64,000 bases of DNA from NCBI GenBank assembly GCA_021818465.1, contig JAKAEA010000001.1, positions 41,972 through 105,971 of the forward strand, in the 5' to 3' direction. Position numbers and translations under genes: made by a program. The notes under the pieces were generated by a model. The model saw only the letters and a program-made list of their open reading frames with translations, made no database searches and was not told the origin of the DNA. Source of the stretch: a bacterium. Its GTDB lineage: Bacteria; Patescibacteriota; Minisyncoccia; Phycocordibacterales; JAKAEA01. Below are positions 12,829 to 20,078 of the stretch, in pieces; within the stretch, counting starts at the first letter, position 1; every line of letters begins with the position of its first letter.

Positions 12829-13494
12829 CTACGCGACCGACTTTGTGCCATTCGGTTTTGGAATACAAAACACCCAACGATAACTAGCATCATAAAACAT
12901 TTTAGAATCACCAGAACTACTAGTAAGTCGCAGGTCCCCAAATTCAGTCCGTTTGACAAGAAAAATACTCAAAGGACCATTGGGAACGACAACTGGTTTC
13001 ATTGCAATCAGTAACGAACAATCGTGTCGTAGGTTTTTGTATTGTAAAAGTAGCTGTGGGCCAACTTCAGGTGGACAGAGTGCTAAGCCGTGCCTTTTAG
13101 CCCGAGCATATACTTCACCAACAACAGCACCGTGTTCAAAACCAAGTTCAAAATCAGAAACCTCAATGAGCTCTATTTCCATAGACTGTTTAAAAAACTT
13201 CGGTACGAGTTTTTTAAGCATCATCTTTCCACAATTACTAACACATATACCCTTTTCACACATAGCCGTGCAAAAATCCTCAACTGATTCAAAACCGGTG
13301 CCAAGATTTAAGATACAAAATGTAGTAAAATTTGGCAAAGAATTTTTTTTCTTTGAAATACTGAGAATTTTTTTAAGAGCTTTTTGCAGAAGTGTGGGAT
13401 TTTTTATCCAAAATCCCATACACTCATCGTTTACAGGAGGGAGATTTTGGACAATAGATGTAACGAACTGATCCTTCAACGTACCTGTTGACAT
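12829..13494 (-). CDS. hypothetical protein with conserved Cys/His (possible papain-like fold)
   Basis: 221-aa ORF in an AT-rich islet next to the FkbM gene. No recognisable family. Confidence 0.35.
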   Translation of the reverse strand: MSTGTLKDQFVTSIVQNLPPVNDECMGFWIKNPTLLQKALKKILSISKKKNSLPNFTTFCILNLGTGFESVEDFCTAMCEKGICVSNCGKMMLKKLVPKFFKQSMEIELIEVSDFELGFEHGAVVGEVYARAKRHGLALCPPEVGPQLLLQYKNLRHDCSLLIAMKPVVVPNGPLSIFLVKRTEFGDLRLTSSSGDSKMFYDASYRWVFCIPKPNGTKSVA

Positions 13495-15234: not shown

Positions 15235-15759
15235 TTAATCATCGATAGGAATAGTTTCTGAAGGATCCGAGATATCATTTACCACGATCGCTTCTGAGCT
15301 GCCACTAGGCACTCCTGCTATAAGCATTTCGAGAGGCGAAGCAACTCGCTGAACTTTTCCAGGCATAACCCAGAAACCAGCACGACTGGCACCAGTATCC
15401 GCACAATCCCATCGTAAACAGCCGACGAGCTGAAGCGGTGCTTCTTTGTACACAACCGCGTATTCTGGAACCGTGACCCCCTCACGTGGTGTGTATAGCG
15501 TGATGGGTTCACCTGGGAGGATGATTTCGCCACACCAAGCGCATTTGATTGCCGCTTTGCGCCAGCATTGCGGACAATAGTCGCGACTCTTATCAAGCGT
15601 ATACACTCCTCTACATTTATTGATGATAAAAAGGGTTTTTTGTTTCGCCATGTGACCACAGCCACACATGTAGTTTCGACCAAAAGTTTTGTAGAAAAGA
15701 CTTTGGCTGTTCATCCAGAACCTACGCAGTATCCGGATCCCAACTGACACACTGTTCAT
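15235..15759 (-). CDS. hypothetical Cys-rich protein
   Basis: Several CxxC pairs (CGCGH, CPQC, CAWC). No family recognised. Confidence 0.35.
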   Translation of the reverse strand: MNSVSVGIRILRRFWMNSQSLFYKTFGRNYMCGCGHMAKQKTLFIINKCRGVYTLDKSRDYCPQCWRKAAIKCAWCGEIILPGEPITLYTPREGVTVPEYAVVYKEAPLQLVGCLRWDCADTGASRAGFWVMPGKVQRVASPLEMLIAGVPSGSSEAIVVNDISDPSETIPIDD

Positions 15760-15885
15760 ATAATTACTCCTTTTGTAAGAACTCTGGCGGCATTTTATAT
15801 ATAAACCCGTAAAAAATCAAATAAAAAAAACCCATACTTTTGTATGGGGTTCTCAATGTTCACGTTTTGAGATACGTTTTTTATA

Positions 15886-16506
15886 CTACTTGCGGAAGGC
15901 AAACCAATTGAAGATGCCGATGAAGCTCTCGGCCAAGCAGAGGTCCGTCTCGCGCTGCGAGTCGTACCACCAGACAGAGCAGGCGTAGCGGTTACTCTCG
16001 AAGGTGCAATCCGTTGTAGCCACCACATACATCGGATTTTGACCGAGCTTGGTGTGGAGCGCAGGATTGTGTTCACCGATGGCGAAGACTTCGCGCGGAT
16101 TGGTCCGATTGAGTCCTTTGGATTTGGCCCATCTGAGAGCTTTGTCCCAATTGCCGCCACCATTGGGGAAATTGAGGAGGATAATCTCCTGCTCAATAGT
16201 CCCCATTTCGACTGGAGGATACTGCCTACCAATCTTGCGGACATTGTGGTAAACCATCGTTTTGGTACTAGCGGCATCGATTGCCTCCTGCCATTCACGC
16301 TCCTGATTCACCTTTACCGTGAGCACACGGACACGAGCGCCTTTCGGCGGCTGTATGTCCTTGAGCTCCAGCTTGAGTGAATCAAGAAAACGGCTAAATG
16401 AGCCGTTGTCGAGGGCTTGCTGGAACTGCTGGCGACTGACGCCTTTGTCGATGGCCATATTACGAACGGAATCTGACTGACTGGAAGTAACAAGTTTGTC
16501 GCTCAT
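15886..16506 (-). CDS. hypothetical protein, distant paralog of the DGR target protein
   Basis: Weak collinear similarity to ORF 19195..19983 (LLNFPNGGGNWDKALRWAKSKG vs LLVDLGIITVPDDYDHATALAKFGKK; VWWYDSQRE vs VWDQKRDQ). Strong Shine-Dalgarno and a promoter/leader shared with 16764..17040. Confidence 0.45.
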   Translation of the reverse strand: MSDKLVTSSQSDSVRNMAIDKGVSRQQFQQALDNGSFSRFLDSLKLELKDIQPPKGARVRVLTVKVNQEREWQEAIDAASTKTMVYHNVRKIGRQYPPVEMGTIEQEIILLNFPNGGGNWDKALRWAKSKGLNRTNPREVFAIGEHNPALHTKLGQNPMYVVATTDCTFESNRYACSVWWYDSQRETDLCLAESFIGIFNWFAFRK

Positions 16507-16634
16507 AACTGACTCCTTTTATTGCGCTCACCTCAAGCTCCGAAACACTCGGCACCAGAGGCAGACAAGTTCAATGAACGTACTGGTTGATATAATGTAT
16601 CAAAAATACCGACTTGTCAAATATGGGTGCTCAC
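16504..16634 (-). promoter_or_regulatory. promoter plus conserved roughly 95-nt 5' leader, copy A
   Basis: TTGACA -35, a TATATC -10-like element, and a structured leader ending in the AAGGAG Shine-Dalgarno. About 90% identical to copy B at 17038..17168. Confidence 0.5.
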
Positions 16635-16763
16635 ACAGTTTGAGGTGGAACACGATTGAGACGGAGATACTGAGGTGGAAAATGATGGCAATGCACTTGT
16701 GACGTTCGTCAAAAAAAGCCGAGGGTATTTCACCTTCGGCTTAGAAAAAGCGTAATGAGAGAC

Positions 16764-17040
16764 TCAAAAACACGGTGTCCTTATGATGTCTTCCTTACCA
16801 CAGAGTTTACAGTTACCTTCCACATCAAAAGTTGGATGCGGACACTGCCCCTGAACAACCGCGAGCTGCAGCTTGACTTTTGCAACCTTGTCAGCAAGAT
16901 CGTGTTGTTGCTCTCTGAGCTTGTTAAGTCGCTCCTGAATCGGACGCAGCTTCCTTTTAAGGGTCACAGTTTTTAGCTTCTTTTCATTCGGCGGTGTAAG
17001 ACTTGGGTAAGACACAGCAACAAACCTCTTGTAGTGCATA
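16764..17040 (-). CDS. small coiled-coil / C-terminal zinc-ribbon protein (start MHYKRF at 17040)
   Basis: ORF directly follows copy B of the duplicated leader. C-terminal CPHP...CKLCGK Cys cluster. Confidence 0.4.
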
Positions 17041-17168
17041 TAACTGACTCCTTTTATTGCGCCCACCTCAAGCTCCGAAACACTCGGCACCAGAGGCAGA
17101 CAAGTTCAATGAACGTACTGGTTTATATAAAATATTAAAAATACGTACTTGTCAAGGATGGGTCTTAA
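17038..17168 (-). promoter_or_regulatory. promoter plus conserved 5' leader, copy B
   Basis: Direct repeat of 16504..16634 with TTGACA -35. Confidence 0.5.
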
Positions 17169-17327
17169 CCGTGATACTAATAGTCACCCGCTTTTTGACC
17201 GACACCTAATCGAATCTACCTATACCCAGCTTTGTTTTTTGAGAGAGATGATGCGGAGAGAGGGGGTTGGGGTTTGAGGAGAATTTCGGAGAAAAACTAA
17301 ATTCAAAGGCTATCGTGACGGTAATAG

Positions 17328-18356
17328 TTACCCCGGAACAGCTGACAATTGCAGGGGAATGTTTTGCGCCGCAACATTTTCACAAATCATTTTGAGCCTC
17401 TTTTGCAATTGATAAGTGTTTCCATGTCCAAGAAGTCCGCGATACGAGCTTATCGTTTCTCGTTTTGGATAACCTTTCATCATACGAACTATTTTTCGTT
17501 TTGTCGTTGTCCTAATCTGCCGATGGTGAGGGAAATGGACCCAACCGAGAAAATCCACACCAGAGTCGTATGTTTTTATATAGACTTTGTGTTCATGAAG
17601 CGTGAGGTGTAGTTTTTCATTGAGAAATTTTTGTAGCCATGGCAAAAGCTTTTCTAAATATTCTTTGCTCTCAGACAGGATCGCAAAATCATCAGCATAG
17701 CGGAGATAGTATTTTATTCGCAACTCCTGTTTGAGGTACACATCAAATTCGTGCATATACACATTCACGAGAAGCTGGGATGTGAGATTGCCGAGCGGTA
17801 AACCAATGCCAGAAGTAGTCGTGTAAAAACTTGAGATAACTTTATGAATAAGCGCCCGGATATCTGGATCAACAATATGCCGTTCAAGAATTTTCATTAA
17901 AATCGCGTGGTCAACGCTCGCAAAGAATTTCCGTATATCGCATTTAAGCACGTAACATGTTCGTGTGTGATTTTTAGATACCTTTCGAGCAAAATCTCTA
18001 AAGCGATCGAGCGCCTTGTGCGTCCCTTTATTTTTTCGACAGGAATAGGAATCAAAAATAAATTGCTGATGGAAATGCCAGTACAATTCTTTATAAATAA
18101 GGTGGTGCAATATCCTATCACGAACCGTAGCTTTGTGAATGTTGCGTGGTTTCGGGTCAGAAATGTTGAAAGCTGAATATGAGCCGTGCGTATATGTTTT
18201 ATTTTTTAGATCGGAGTAGAGACTGGCAATATTGGTTGCTAGTTCTGCTTGAAATTTAATGACATCTTTTTTCTTTTTCTTGCCACGCAGAAACCGCTCC
18301 CATGTCAGGAGTAGATTTTCGATGGTAATGATAGAATTGTATGTATGAGTGAACAC
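17328..18356 (-). CDS. diversity-generating retroelement reverse transcriptase
   Basis: 342-aa RT with the DGR-type motif 4 IGLPLGNLTSQ and YADDFAIL. The size is typical of DGR RTs, and it sits next to an Avd gene and a TR/VR pair. Confidence 0.85.
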   Translation of the reverse strand: MFTHTYNSIITIENLLLTWERFLRGKKKKKDVIKFQAELATNIASLYSDLKNKTYTHGSYSAFNISDPKPRNIHKATVRDRILHHLIYKELYWHFHQQFIFDSYSCRKNKGTHKALDRFRDFARKVSKNHTRTCYVLKCDIRKFFASVDHAILMKILERHIVDPDIRALIHKVISSFYTTTSGIGLPLGNLTSQLLVNVYMHEFDVYLKQELRIKYYLRYADDFAILSESKEYLEKLLPWLQKFLNEKLHLTLHEHKVYIKTYDSGVDFLGWVHFPHHRQIRTTTKRKIVRMMKGYPKRETISSYRGLLGHGNTYQLQKRLKMICENVAAQNIPLQLSAVPG

Positions 18357-18391
18357 GGGCCATTAAGTACCCCCCCATTCCACTTGTTCTT

Positions 18392-18733
18392 GTGCGCGCG
18401 AAAGAGACGTACCAATTGTGGCATAGCTCGATCGTAAATTTAAAGCGCGTTGATCGCTACACGCTCGGTGCAAAGATAGACGATGCGTTTCTCTCGCTCC
18501 TCGAGCTCATATTTAGGGGCCGTTTTGCCTATGACAAATTCGAGAAGTTGTCGCTTGTTTCCCAGGCTATCGCAAAATCCGACCTCTTAAAATTCTTTTT
18601 GCAGCTCGGATGGGAGCATAAAGTGATTGACCACAAAAACTACGGTGCGCTCATTCTCCTCCTGGATGAAGTCGGCCGCATGCTCGATGGATGGAAGAAA
18701 AATCTTTCAGACAAAACTCCCGCCAATAAATAG
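18392..18733 (+). CDS. avd: DGR accessory variability determinant (Avd, four-helix-bundle protein)
   Basis: 113 aa. C-terminal LDEVGRMLDGWKK matches the Avd/23S-IVS family pattern (bAvd IAEVGRILGSW). GTG start. Divergent from the RT. Confidence 0.7.
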   Translation: MRAKETYQLWHSSIVNLKRVDRYTLGAKIDDAFLSLLELIFRGRFAYDKFEKLSLVSQAIAKSDLLKFFLQLGWEHKVIDHKNYGALILLLDEVGRMLDGWKKNLSDKTPANK

Positions 18734-18750
18734 CGGGAGAAATCATCTGA

Positions 18751-18872
18751 GTCGCAGAAGCAGAGGAAGGCATTGTCGTCGTTCCAAACGTTCTCGAAGT
18801 TACCGATGTTGAAGTTGAAGTCACCGTCCGAGTTGGCGTTCACGTTCGGCACCCTGTGGTTGCCGTCGGCAT
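18751..18872 (-). repeat. DGR template repeat (TR)
   Basis: 122-nt repeat aligning without gaps to 19222..19343. All 19 mismatches are at TR adenines on the coding strand. TR reading frame is Asn(AAC)-rich (NVNANSDGDFNFNIGNFENVWNDDN). Confidence 0.88.
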
Positions 18873-19123
18873 ACCCCCTCAAGCAATGTACGACGTGTCG
18901 TCGGGACCACCAAAAAGAGCACCAGCTCCCTTTTGTATTTTATTCCGAGTCTAAACCTCGTTAACACATCGCACCGACTTATTTGATTTTTTCATAAAGG
19001 CAGCCCTCATCCGCAAGGCGTACCCAGCGGACCACTCGCTGATTCCTAGTACGAGAATTTGACGGCATGAAGCCAGTAGCCGCATGCTCTATCTTATTCC
19101 AGACGCAATTGTACCTGATTTGT

Positions 19124-19160
19124 ATAAAAAAATTGAGCCCTCGCAGTGAAGCAAGGGCTC
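19124..19160 (-). terminator. rho-independent terminator of the DGR target gene
   Basis: gagccct-n12-agggctc hairpin followed by a U-run on the minus strand. An additional gggtcttagaccc hairpin lies right after the stop. Confidence 0.55.
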
Positions 19161-19194
19161 AAAGGGTCTAAGACCCGAAGAACATTCTGAGTGC

Positions 19195-19983
19195 CTAAGC
19201 GACTGAGGACTCGGGTTCCAAGTCGCAGAAGCAGAGGAAGGCATCGTCGACGCGCCAAACGTCCTCGAAGTCACCGATGTCGAAGCGGAAGACACCGTCC
19301 GAGTAGGCGAACACGCTCGGCACCCCGTGGTCGCCGACGGCATCTTGCCAAAGGCGTTCCTTCTCATCGAAGGAGCAATACCACTTACCTTTCGGCAGTT
19401 GGTCGCGCTTCTGGTCCCAGACGAGCGAGGCTCCCTGAGCGCCAACGTGAACCGCTTTCTGCGTGGCCAGGAAGGCCATGCGCTCCTCGGAAGTTGTGCT
19501 TCCACCAACGACTTGCTTGAACGCGCGAACGCGGAGCTTGTCGCCGGGTTTGAGGATACGGGTCGGATTCGGGAAGTTGGGATCGGTGATCGCTTCGTTG
19601 TAGTAATAGAACTTTTTACGGTTCTTCTTACCAAACTTGGCGAGCGCTGTCGCGTGATCGTAGTCATCCGGCACCGTAATGATGCCGAGGTCAACGAGCA
19701 GAGCGAACTTCTCCGTGGATTCTGCAGGGGCTTGAGGCTCCGGCTTCTTCCAGTCGCCGAACCGCGCTTCCCGATCGTCCGTGGAGAGGTTGTTGAACCG
19801 CTCCCATTGGCCGAGGGTGATTTGACCGCTTCGCACCTTTTGAAGGGTGTCGATTTGCAAACCAGCCAGTTTGGCCGCATTTGCGCCGATGACAGTACTC
19901 ATCGTTTGTCCTTTCTTTACAATGTGCTTCCGGAAATCTGCCGGATCAGGCGCAAGGGTATCTTGCGTGTCAAACAATATCAT
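19195..19983 (-). CDS. DGR target protein with C-terminal variable region (probable start MSTVIG at 19902)
   Basis: The VR occupies the last 50 or so codons before the stop. An internal ATG with a GAAAGGA Shine-Dalgarno and an upstream TTGACA promoter point to the 19902 start. The gene is locally GC-rich. Confidence 0.8.
   Translation of the reverse strand: MILFDTQDTLAPDPADFRKHIVKKGQTMSTVIGANAAKLAGLQIDTLQKVRSGQITLGQWERFNNLSTDDREARFGDWKKPEPQAPAESTEKFALLVDLGIITVPDDYDHATALAKFGKKNRKKFYYYNEAITDPNFPNPTRILKPGDKLRVRAFKQVVGGSTTSEERMAFLATQKAVHVGAQGASLVWDQKRDQLPKGKWYCSFDEKERLWQDAVGDHGVPSVFAYSDGVFRFDIGDFEDVWRVDDAFLCFCDLEPESSVA
19222..19343 (-). repeat. DGR variable repeat (VR)
   Basis: Cognate of the TR. 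Differences are confined to TR-adenine positions. The 23-nt 3' end is identical in TR and VR. Confidence 0.88.
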
Positions 19984-20006
19984 ATAAGATGATATATGTC
20001 AACGGG

Positions 20007-20078
20007 GTGCCTAATGGGACTCGAACCCATACTGCCGCTTCCACAGAGCGAAGTGCTAACCATTACACCATAGGCACC
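20007..20078 (-). tRNA. tRNA-His(GTG)
   Basis: Cloverleaf with extra G-1, anticodon loop CTGTGGA, TTCGAGT T-loop. No encoded CCA. Confidence 0.8.

What the first reader, a model, noticed from the sequence alone, without database searches (positions are those of the whole stretch)
16504..17168. Duplicated promoter plus structured 5' leader driving two different genes next to the DGR
About 125 bp (16504..16634 and 17038..17168) are roughly 90% identical. Each copy has a TTGACA -35, a TATAT(C/A) element and an 85-95-nt leader. The leader has internal hairpins (GUUCAUUGAAC; CCGAGUGUUUCGG; CCUC...GAGG) and ends in AAGGAG-N6-ATG. Copy A precedes the target paralog 15886..16506. Copy B precedes an unrelated small zinc-ribbon protein. 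A conserved leader of this kind may be a cis-regulatory RNA (riboswitch-like or protein-binding) coordinating DGR-associated genes, or a recent duplication.
Basis: seen in the sequence. Interest (0 to 1): 0.6.

Follow-up and report, generated by a model that had tools for sequence, protein, structure and literature searches.

The report
Conserved RNA leader, duplicated locally
The repeated 124 bases are a promoter plus a folded RNA leader that, in many uncultured Patescibacteria (CPR), sits in front of one family of hypermutated (DGR-diversified) protein genes. In this genome the module has been copied once more, so that it also drives a small gene found nowhere else.

Summary
The repeat is real: 16505-16628 and 17040-17163 are 93% identical, and there are only two copies in the 64 kb. 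On the minus strand each copy is a TTGACA promoter, a conserved 5' box (GTTCATTGAAC), an irregular 41-nt hairpin, a Shine-Dalgarno site (SD) and an ATG.

It is not just a local duplication. The hairpin lies directly upstream of homologues of gene A (15886-16506) in 23 of 30 loci from other Patescibacteria. 89.6% of cells pair, against 34-44% in slid controls, and 11 of 17 pairs show compensatory changes. About 23% of paired cells are G.U, so the structure belongs to the sense-strand RNA. Rfam 15 has no match.

Gene A belongs to a true DGR variable-protein family. In six homologous loci every TR-VR mismatch is at a TR adenine. Here, however, gene A has no cognate TR and is unrelated to this DGR's active target.

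Copy B is a recent, lineage-specific copy (98% identical, against 44-69% to leaders elsewhere). It drives an orphan 91-aa gene.

The most likely function is a trans-factor-binding regulatory 5' UTR that co-regulates A and B. That function is inferred, not shown. A riboswitch is unlikely.

The parts
16505..16628 (-). Repeat copy A: promoter plus 5' leader of gene A
17040..17163 (-). Repeat copy B: promoter plus 5' leader of gene B (93% identical to copy A)
16592..16620 (-). Copy A sigma-70-like promoter: TTGACA, 17 nt, CATTAT (10 of 12 matches). TATATC at a 20-nt spacing is the alternative -10.
   Evidence: By homology, other loci have TTGACA-17-TATAAT/TATACT at this place.
17150..17155 (-). 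Copy B -35 hexamer TTGACA. The -10 is uncertain (TTTTAT or TATATA) and was not passed by the scan.
16569..16579 (-). 5' box GTTCATTGAAC of copy A. It lies 8-12 nt after the -10 element, so near the predicted 5' end of the mRNA.
   Evidence: In the fetched loci the box follows a promoter only upstream of gene A homologues.
17104..17114 (-). 5' box GTTCATTGAAC of copy B
16526..16566 (-). Core hairpin P1-P2-P3 of copy A. It has a C.A mismatch in P1. The covariance model (CM) hit spans 16515-16575 at 69.5 bits.
17061..17101 (-). Core hairpin of copy B. The A-to-G change restores a C-G pair in P1. The CM hit spans 17050-17110 at 71.0 bits. The predicted minimum free energy of the whole leader is -24.6 kcal/mol, against -20.0 for copy A.
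16513..16518 (-). Shine-Dalgarno AAGGAG of gene A, 6 nt before the ATG at 16506-16504
17048..17053 (-). Shine-Dalgarno AAGGAG of gene B, 8 nt before the ATG at 17039-17037
15886..16506 (-). Gene A, 206 aa. It belongs to a Patescibacteria DGR variable-protein family. Its VR-like 3' end has no cognate TR in the window.
16764..17039 (-). Gene B, 91 aa, an orphan. It is predicted as one long helix followed by a Cys/His-rich tail.
16701..16730 (-). Terminator-like hairpin GCCGAAGG-UGAAAUA-CCCUCGGC followed by U7, after gene B. It separates the two transcription units.
   Evidence: Read from the sequence; aligned as a terminator stem. The terminator scan did not flag it (one mismatch in the stem).
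15823..15848 (-). Intrinsic terminator after gene A
17328..19983 (-). Context, the adjacent DGR. RT 17328-18356 (-), avd 18392-18733 (+), TR 18750-18872, and VR 19221-19343 inside the unrelated target 19195-19983. All 17 of 17 TR-VR mismatches are at TR adenines.

Best explanation
Each copy is a complete expression module on the minus strand. In order it holds a sigma-70-type promoter, a conserved 5'-proximal box (GUUCAUUGAAC) and one irregular hairpin. The hairpin has a 9-bp P1, a U / UU internal loop, an almost invariant P2 (GGU paired with GCU, that is G.U, G-C, U.G), a 1x1 loop, and a 4-6-bp P3 with a 4-6-nt loop. A short A/C-rich linker, the SD and the start codon follow. SHOWN: the hairpin is an evolutionarily conserved RNA structure on the mRNA strand. 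It is tied to one gene family, the gene A family, which is a DGR variable-protein family of Patescibacteria. It travels with that gene whether or not a DGR is adjacent. In this genome the module, from about -45 to the start codon and nothing more, was recently copied in front of an orphan 91-aa gene inserted between the RT and gene A. Other genomes have the order RT-leader-geneA with no gene B. INFERRED: the hairpin ends 14-28 nt before the AUG and pairs with neither the SD nor the AUG. It most likely works as a docking site for a trans-acting factor, most plausibly a protein, that sets translation or mRNA life. The only partner that always co-occurs with it is the gene A product itself, so autoregulation is the simplest guess. 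Gene B would then be under the same control as gene A. The much stronger conservation of the leader than of the promoter spacer between the two copies fits constraint on, or gene conversion of, the RNA part.
For: The repeat is real. The leader is seen upstream of gene A homologues from records titled Vogel-, Taylor-, Nomura- and 'Saccharibacteria' and Patescibacteria group. Structure counts on A5: 89.6% of cells pair against 34-44% when slid; 10 of 17 pairs have compensatory changes; 0 of 500 shuffles reach the covariation score. On the 25-sequence A8: 11 of 17 pairs and 47 cells. Model R1 over 280 kb hits only the position just upstream of gene A homologues, plus window copy B. Four of five loci fetched after the model was built are hit at E = 1e-10 to 1e-15, right before the gene. 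About 23% of paired cells are G.U, including the near-invariant pairs at columns 21-44 and 23-42, which fits the sense strand only. Long-variant leaders carry a second hairpin with 15 of 21 compensatory pairs. The SD/AUG region is unpaired in the predicted fold. The gene A family is a DGR target: 6-21 TR-VR mismatches in each of six loci, all at TR adenines, next to RT and avd homologues. L004/L015 show RT-leader-geneA without gene B. Copies A and B are 98% identical, against 44-69% to other leaders; promoter versus leader divergence gives p = 4.5e-4.
Against: No experiment and no transcript data were available: the TSS, the RNA fold in vivo and any binding partner are all inferred. The single-sequence folding energy is unremarkable (z = +0.36 and -1.16). 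Seven of 30 homologous loci are not hit by the model; L033 and L034 show a similar hairpin by eye and L002 a different one. Gene A's N-terminal three-helix region has no recognisable RNA-binding domain. The sequences are related, so shuffle controls overstate significance; the slid-partner control is the fairer one. The rest of the 540-kb source genome could not be scanned for further copies.
Confidence: 0.6

Rival explanations
1. The hairpin is an RNA processing or stability element. It would be an RNase III-type cleavage site or a protective stem that sets mRNA half-life, with no specific regulator.
For: It is an irregular hairpin of about 17 bp with internal loops. The long variant adds a second irregular hairpin of about 21 bp, which has the shape of classical RNase III substrates (established knowledge, not tested here). 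It does not occlude the SD.
Against: The near-invariant P2 (G.U, G-C, U.G) and the fixed bulged U's suggest sequence-specific recognition rather than generic double-stranded RNA. The core hairpin is 20 to more than 100 nt from the predicted 5' end, too far for 5'-end protection.
Confidence: 0.15
2. The leader is a small-molecule or ion riboswitch.
For: It is a conserved structured 5' UTR with invariant wobble pairs and is not in Rfam.
Against: The core is a single hairpin with few conserved unpaired nucleotides. There is no terminator or SD-sequestering alternative fold. The downstream gene is a hypervariable binding protein, not a metabolic or transport gene. P0 is optional.
Confidence: 0.07
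3. The leader is part of the DGR machinery. It would mark variable-protein genes or mRNAs for RT-Avd.
For: The motif is found only with a DGR variable-protein family, and in about 10 loci it lies within 1-2 kb of avd, RT and TR.
Against: It is kept at homologues with no RT within 4-8 kb: L003, L016, L017, L039 and L041. It is absent from this DGR's active target and that target's homologues. It lies about 500 nt 5' of the VR, whereas the known DGR cis elements sit at the VR 3' end or between TR and RT (PMC5758913; PMC5737381). It also drives gene B, which has no VR.
Confidence: 0.05
4. It is a DNA-level element: a palindromic operator, a cruciform or an attC-like recombination site. That would explain motif-ORF-motif-ORF in consecutive intergenic regions.
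For: The tandem arrangement leader-B-leader-A resembles repeated intergenic elements such as attC or the DUF1874 motif (PMC5737381). The 5' box is TTC-N3-GAA-like and keeps its distance to the -10 rather than to the hairpin, so the box alone could be an operator.
Against: About a quarter of hairpin pairs are G.U, which would be A.C mismatches on the other strand. Only this genome has two copies. The repeat includes the whole promoter and stops exactly at the ATG.
Confidence: 0.06
5. It is a plain recent duplication with no functional RNA; the hairpins are incidental.
For: There are only two copies, adjacent to each other, and the folding z-scores are weak.
Against: The leader is conserved with compensatory changes across 23 loci whose proteins are only 45-63% identical to gene A.
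Confidence: 0.03

Closest known systems
Gene-family-specific 5'-UTR RNA motifs of unknown function found by comparative genomics (for example the DUF3800-associated motifs and other motifs of Weinberg et al. 2017, PMC5737381)
   Same: A hairpin-based motif with covariation, always in the 5' UTR of one protein family, in uncultured bacteria, with no obvious expression platform.
   Different: It matches none of the 4227 Rfam 15 models. The associated family is a DGR variable protein of Patescibacteria. The motif comes in a short form and a long two-hairpin form.
Protein-binding translational operators and autoregulatory leaders (ribosomal-protein leaders, the threonyl-tRNA synthetase (ThrRS) operator, the phage MS2 and T4 operators)
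   Same: A conserved irregular hairpin 14-28 nt upstream of the AUG, at the edge of the ribosome-binding region, linked to one gene across lineages.
   Different: No binding protein is known and no mimicry of an rRNA or tRNA site was identified. The similarity is in anatomy only; binding is untested.
DGR-associated RNAs (the TR-spacer RNA, the RT-10 motif between TR and RT, and the hairpin/IMH 3' of VR)
   Same: It occurs in DGR neighbourhoods.
   Different: The location is wrong: it lies 5' of the target gene, about 500 nt from the VR. It persists without an adjacent DGR. There is no Rfam RT-motif hit at this site.
Promoter or regulatory-module duplication that recruits a new gene
   Same: Copy B is an exact copy of the region from -45 to the ATG, placed before an unrelated orphan ORF that has its own terminator.
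   Different: The copied module carries a conserved structured RNA, and the two leaders stay nearly identical while the promoter spacer has diverged.

Membership tests
Any Rfam 15 RNA family | Score at or above the family gathering threshold, or at least a significant E-value | tested here: not met
   The window at gathering threshold gives only 8 tRNAs. Region 16400-17300 in E-value mode gives nothing below E = 3. Six homologous loci give nothing at the leader.
Conserved structured RNA (generic) | Base pairs kept through compensatory changes in independent sequences, and better than register-shifted controls | tested here: met
   89.6% paired against 34-44% slid. 11 of 17 pairs are compensatory. 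0 of 500 shuffles reach the observed score. Four loci that were not in the seed are recovered.
Riboswitch | Expression platform: an intrinsic terminator or an SD-sequestering alternative helix coupled to the aptamer | tested here: not met
   There is no terminator between the hairpin and the ATG. The SD/AUG region is unpaired in the predicted and centroid folds.
Riboswitch | Specific ligand binding by the aptamer | not testable with these tools
   This needs in-line probing or ITC.
Protein-binding translational operator / autoregulatory leader | Conserved structure within or next to the ribosome-binding region of the regulated gene | tested here: met
   The hairpin's 3' end lies 14-28 nt before the AUG in all aligned leaders.
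Protein-binding translational operator / autoregulatory leader | Demonstrated binding of a protein, and repression or activation | not testable with these tools
   The only indirect evidence is that the motif co-occurs solely with the gene A family.
DGR cis elements (TR, VR, IMH, 3' hairpin, spacer RNA) | Position at the 3' end of VR, or between TR and RT; TR-VR homology | tested here: not met
   The leader is 5' of the ORF. It has no similarity to the TR or VR. The model has no hits near the TR or RT.
DGR variable protein (asked of gene A) | A VR at the 3' end with a cognate TR that differs only at TR adenines, next to RT/avd | tested here: inconclusive
   Met for homologues in L001, L002, L006, L012, L019 and L021: 6-21 mismatches each, all at A. 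Not met for the window's gene A: there is no TR match. Its 3' end aligns to foreign TRs, with mismatches enriched at A (14 of 29 against 13 of 86).
DGR variable protein (asked of gene A) | C-type-lectin-like fold of the variable domain | tested here: inconclusive
Sigma-70-type promoter | -35 and -10 hexamers at a 16-18-nt spacing | tested here: inconclusive
   Copy A has TTGACA-17-CATTAT, 10 of 12 matches. Copy B has an exact -35 but no -10 that passes the scan. Homologous loci have TTGACA-17-TATAAT/TATACT.

The most novel reading that the evidence does not exclude
The leader would be the RNA operator of a feedback circuit built around a DGR-diversified protein. The conserved N-terminal three-helix domain of the gene A protein would bind the P1-P2-P3 hairpin. 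The hypervariable C-terminal ligand-binding domain would modulate that binding. A hypermutating receptor would thus control its own synthesis and, in this genome, that of the co-opted orphan gene B. That would make it a diversifiable intracellular sensor-regulator. Nothing found here excludes this reading and nothing tests it.
Probability: 0.1. Interest if true: 0.8.

Novelty: new member of a known kind. Interest (0 to 1): 0.55.

Why it matters
Almost nothing is known about how DGR variable proteins are expressed in Patescibacteria. The large DGR surveys I could search do not mention promoters or leaders. This is a covariation-supported RNA motif, absent from Rfam, that marks one variable-protein family. 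It gives a concrete handle for a search model, reporter assays and pull-downs aimed at that regulation. The local duplication also shows a regulatory RNA module being reused to wire an orphan gene into the same circuit.

Tried and rejected
- **Rfam.** Three searches, at gathering and E-value thresholds, found nothing.
- **Gene A as a paralogue of the active target.** Rejected: BLASTP E = 0.28. The 221-aa neighbour is also unrelated.
- **Gene B as a decayed copy of gene A.** Rejected. A six-frame hmmsearch with the family profile and blastn found nothing.
- **Gene B homologues.** None, in either the word-indexed search or the full HMMER scan. The only other hit is a coiled-coil repeat protein. 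A single-sequence AF2 model was too poor to search with.
- **Upstream mini-ORF through the hairpin (TTG start).** Rejected, because loop indels break the frame between homologues.
- **Antisense ORF.** Rejected: the plus-strand ORFs over the two copies are in different frames.
- **Pseudoknot of the P3 loop with the ACAAC linker, and pairing of the 5' box with the start region.** Both were examined by eye on A3 and A6. Neither is supported by covariation.
- **The motif as a general DGR-target leader.** Rejected.
- **Pfam, PHROGs and NCBIfam.** None names gene A or gene B.

Full report
**1. The observation**

The repeat exists as described. The repeat finder reports 16505-16628 and 17040-17163 as a 124-nt direct repeat at 93% identity. 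blastn gives E = 1.8e-46 and finds no third copy in the 64-kb window.

Both flanking genes lie on the minus strand, so each copy reads, 5' to 3', as follows:
- an exact TTGACA;
- an A/T-rich -10 region;
- the box GTTCATTGAAC;
- the hairpin GUCUGCCUC-U-GGU-G-CCGA-GUGUU-UCGG-A-GCU-U-GAGGUG(A/G)GC;
- the linker GCAAUAA, then AAGGAG and the ATG.

Similarity starts about 9 nt upstream of the -35 and stops exactly at the start codon.

Three small corrections are needed. Gene B starts at 17039-17037, which I found through a frame error and fixed. The SD-ATG spacing is therefore N6 in copy A and N8 in copy B. The -10 cannot be fixed: the consensus scan accepts only copy A, as TTGACA-17-CATTAT.

The differences between copies are unevenly spread. 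There are 8 substitutions in about 40 nt of promoter, against 1 substitution and a 2-nt indel in about 85 nt of leader (Fisher p = 4.5e-4).

**2. The genes and the neighbourhood**

The window comes from NCBI assembly GCA_027341405.1, contig DAIEME010000001.1, 539,823 bp. An independent Logan assembly breaks inside the leader (L031). That is what a genuine repeat would cause.

The minus-strand order is:
- target 19983-19195, which holds the VR at 19221-19343;
- TR 18750-18872;
- avd 18392-18733, on the opposite strand;
- RT 18356-17328;
- copy B;
- gene B 17039-16764;
- a terminator-like hairpin with a U7 run, 16730-16701;
- copy A;
- gene A 16506-15886;
- a terminator.

All 17 TR-VR mismatches of this DGR are at TR adenines. 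The inverted avd matches the 'B3' architecture reported for 90% of CPR DGRs (PMC5758913).

Gene B (91 aa) is an orphan. Only its own sequence was found among 5.8 billion clustered proteins. A full HMMER scan of 1.84 billion representatives added only a coiled-coil repeat hit. No Pfam, PHROGs or NCBIfam model matches it.

Gene A (206 aa) has at least 100 homologues at 38-63% identity, all unnamed.

**3. Gene A is a DGR variable-protein homologue, but not a paralogue of the local target**

BLASTP between gene A and the local target is not significant (E = 0.28).

The family alignment shows a C-terminus with fixed positions interleaved with hypervariable ones. In six homologous loci the last ~115 nt of the gene are repeated 370-500 nt downstream at 82-95% identity. 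All 6-21 mismatches per locus fall on adenines of the downstream copy. Next to them lie avd and RT homologues of the window's genes, with RTs 51-61% identical. So this family is a bona fide DGR target elsewhere.

In the window, gene A's 3' end matches no TR. It still aligns to foreign TRs, with mismatches enriched at adenines (14 of 29 against 13 of 86). It is therefore a variable-protein gene that has lost its template, or uses a remote one.

An AF2 model is confident (pLDDT 86). Its fold matches to C-type-lectin-like domains are weak.

**4. The leader is conserved elsewhere, with covariation**

I fetched loci encoding gene A homologues from three sources: GTDB genomes (11), metagenomes (18) and exact-protein look-ups. 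In most of them the stretch before the ATG shows the same anatomy.

An alignment of 21 core hairpins (A5) with a hand-drawn 17-pair structure gave these results:
- 89.6% of cells pair, against 34-44% when the 3' partners are slid by 1-3 columns;
- 10 pairs show compensatory changes;
- none of 500 shuffles reaches the observed covariation score.

RNAalifold independently predicts the same helix.

A covariance model built from A5 (R1) was searched over the window and 33 loci, 280 kb on both strands. It hit only the position just upstream of gene A homologues, plus window copy B.

Five further loci were fetched after the model was built. Four were hit at E = 1e-10 to 1e-15, each directly before the gene, including the closest homologue (L036). 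On the resulting 25-sequence alignment, 11 of 17 pairs and 47 cells are compensatory.

Overall, 23 of 30 distinct loci with a 5' region carry the motif. L033 and L034 show a similar hairpin by eye. L002 has a different one.

About 23% of paired cells are G.U, including the almost invariant P2 (G.U 21/25, G-C 21/25, U.G 23/25). This fits an RNA on the mRNA strand, not a DNA cruciform or an antisense RNA.

**5. Other parts of the leader**

A 5' box, (G/U)(U/A)AGUUCWUUGAW, sits 8-12 nt after the -10 in most loci. It stays there even where the model does not detect the hairpin (L026, L034). In the long variants it stays with the promoter rather than with the hairpin. It is therefore either the conserved 5' end of the mRNA or a DNA operator. 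The window has only the two instances.

About ten loci carry a long form of the leader, with an extra ~55-nt hairpin (P0) between the box and the core. P0 has 21 predicted pairs, 15 with compensatory changes, in only 10 sequences. The window has the short form.

**6. What the motif is not**

- It matches no Rfam 15 family.
- It is not in IMG/VR for two degenerate patterns.
- It is not a general DGR-target leader. The window's active target and three of its homologues give no hit, although that family seems to have its own conserved leader.
- It does not depend on an adjacent DGR. L003, L016, L017, L039 and L041 carry it with no RT in 4-8 kb of flank.
- It does not sequester the SD or the AUG, and no terminator follows it.
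- A mini-ORF through the hairpin is not frame-conserved.
- The plus-strand ORFs over the two copies are in different frames.

**7. Origin of copy B**

The two window leaders are 98% identical, whereas leaders elsewhere are 44-69% identical to the window's. No other locus has a second copy.

L004/L015 have RT-leader-geneA with only about 215 nt between the RT and the gene, and no gene B. Gene B's DNA resembles neither gene A nor anything else I fetched.

So a unit of 535 bp (gene B, its terminator, and a promoter-leader) was added in this lineage. This could have happened by tandem duplication with replacement, or by single-crossover integration of a leader-bearing fragment.

Copy B keeps the canonical C-G pair in P1 where copy A has C.A. 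Copy B also scores slightly higher with the model (71.0 against 69.5 bits).

**8. Mechanism**

Shown: this is a conserved sense-strand RNA hairpin in the 5' UTR, linked to one gene family and duplicated here.

Inferred: the hairpin ends 14-28 nt before the AUG, leaves the SD free, and has sequence-invariant wobble pairs and bulges. The best reading is therefore a binding site for a trans-acting factor that controls translation or mRNA stability. Gene A's own product is the simplest candidate, because it is the only constant companion of the motif. Genes A and B would then be co-regulated.

The rivals are an RNase III or stability element, a riboswitch, a DGR-machinery signal and a DNA-level site. 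Each is weighed in the rival list.

**9. Verdict**

The motif is a new member of a known kind: a gene-family-specific structured 5' UTR. It is of moderate interest. Its function remains to be tested.

Noticed in passing
window 15886-16010 (3' end of gene A): Gene A carries a VR-like, apparently DGR-diversified 3' end. It aligns at about 79% to TRs of other genomes, with mismatches enriched at TR adenines. No cognate TR was found: the 3' end gave only a self-match in 12-22 kb, and the local TR (18750-18872) does not align to it. The adjacent DGR's TR serves an unrelated target. Gene A looks like an orphaned or swapped DGR target.
   Followed up: partly
L009, L010, L012, L013, L017, L018, L019, L021, L022, L033 (for example L010:3860-3920): A long form of the same leader carries an extra ~55-nt hairpin (P0) between the 5' box and the core hairpin. 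It has 21 predicted pairs, 15 with compensatory changes. Some of these leaders have no SD.
   Followed up: partly
window 19900-20003 (-); L043:340-505; L044:5840-6003: The active 262-aa target probably starts at ATG 19902 (235 aa, like its homologues, and with an AAAGGA SD). The ORF's first ATG at 19983 lies inside its own promoter. Its leader (CCGG-loop-CCGG hairpin, then ACAUUGUAAAGAAAGGACAAACGAUG) is nearly identical in L044 and partly so in L043. This second target family may therefore have its own conserved leader.
   Followed up: partly
window 20004-20077; L012:249-319; L018:79-167: tRNA genes sit directly upstream of the promoters of DGR variable-protein genes in the window (tRNA-His) and in two homologous loci.
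   Followed up: no
window 18392-18733 (+): avd lies on the strand opposite to TR and RT, between them. The same arrangement is seen in L001, L006, L012, L019-L021, L032 and L033. It corresponds to the 'B3' architecture reported as typical of CPR DGRs (PMC5758913).
   Followed up: partly
L031 (Logan SRR13299515 contig), start of contig: An independent assembly of the same gene A locus begins inside the leader (CTGGTGCCGAG...). This is consistent with a repeat-induced contig break. Its sequence agrees with copy A.
   Followed up: no
window 15235-15759 (-) and 12829-13494 (-): Two further ORFs have no family assignment. One is a Cys-rich 174-aa protein directly downstream of gene A. The other is a 221-aa protein beyond the DEAD-box helicase. 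Neither has Pfam, PHROGs or NCBIfam hits.
   Followed up: no
L034:6300-13225: The most divergent gene A homologue (38% identity) lies next to HTH regulators, a Phage_rep_O-like gene and a serine recombinase, so it is possibly on a mobile element or prophage. It keeps the 5' box and a similar hairpin that the model does not detect.
   Followed up: no
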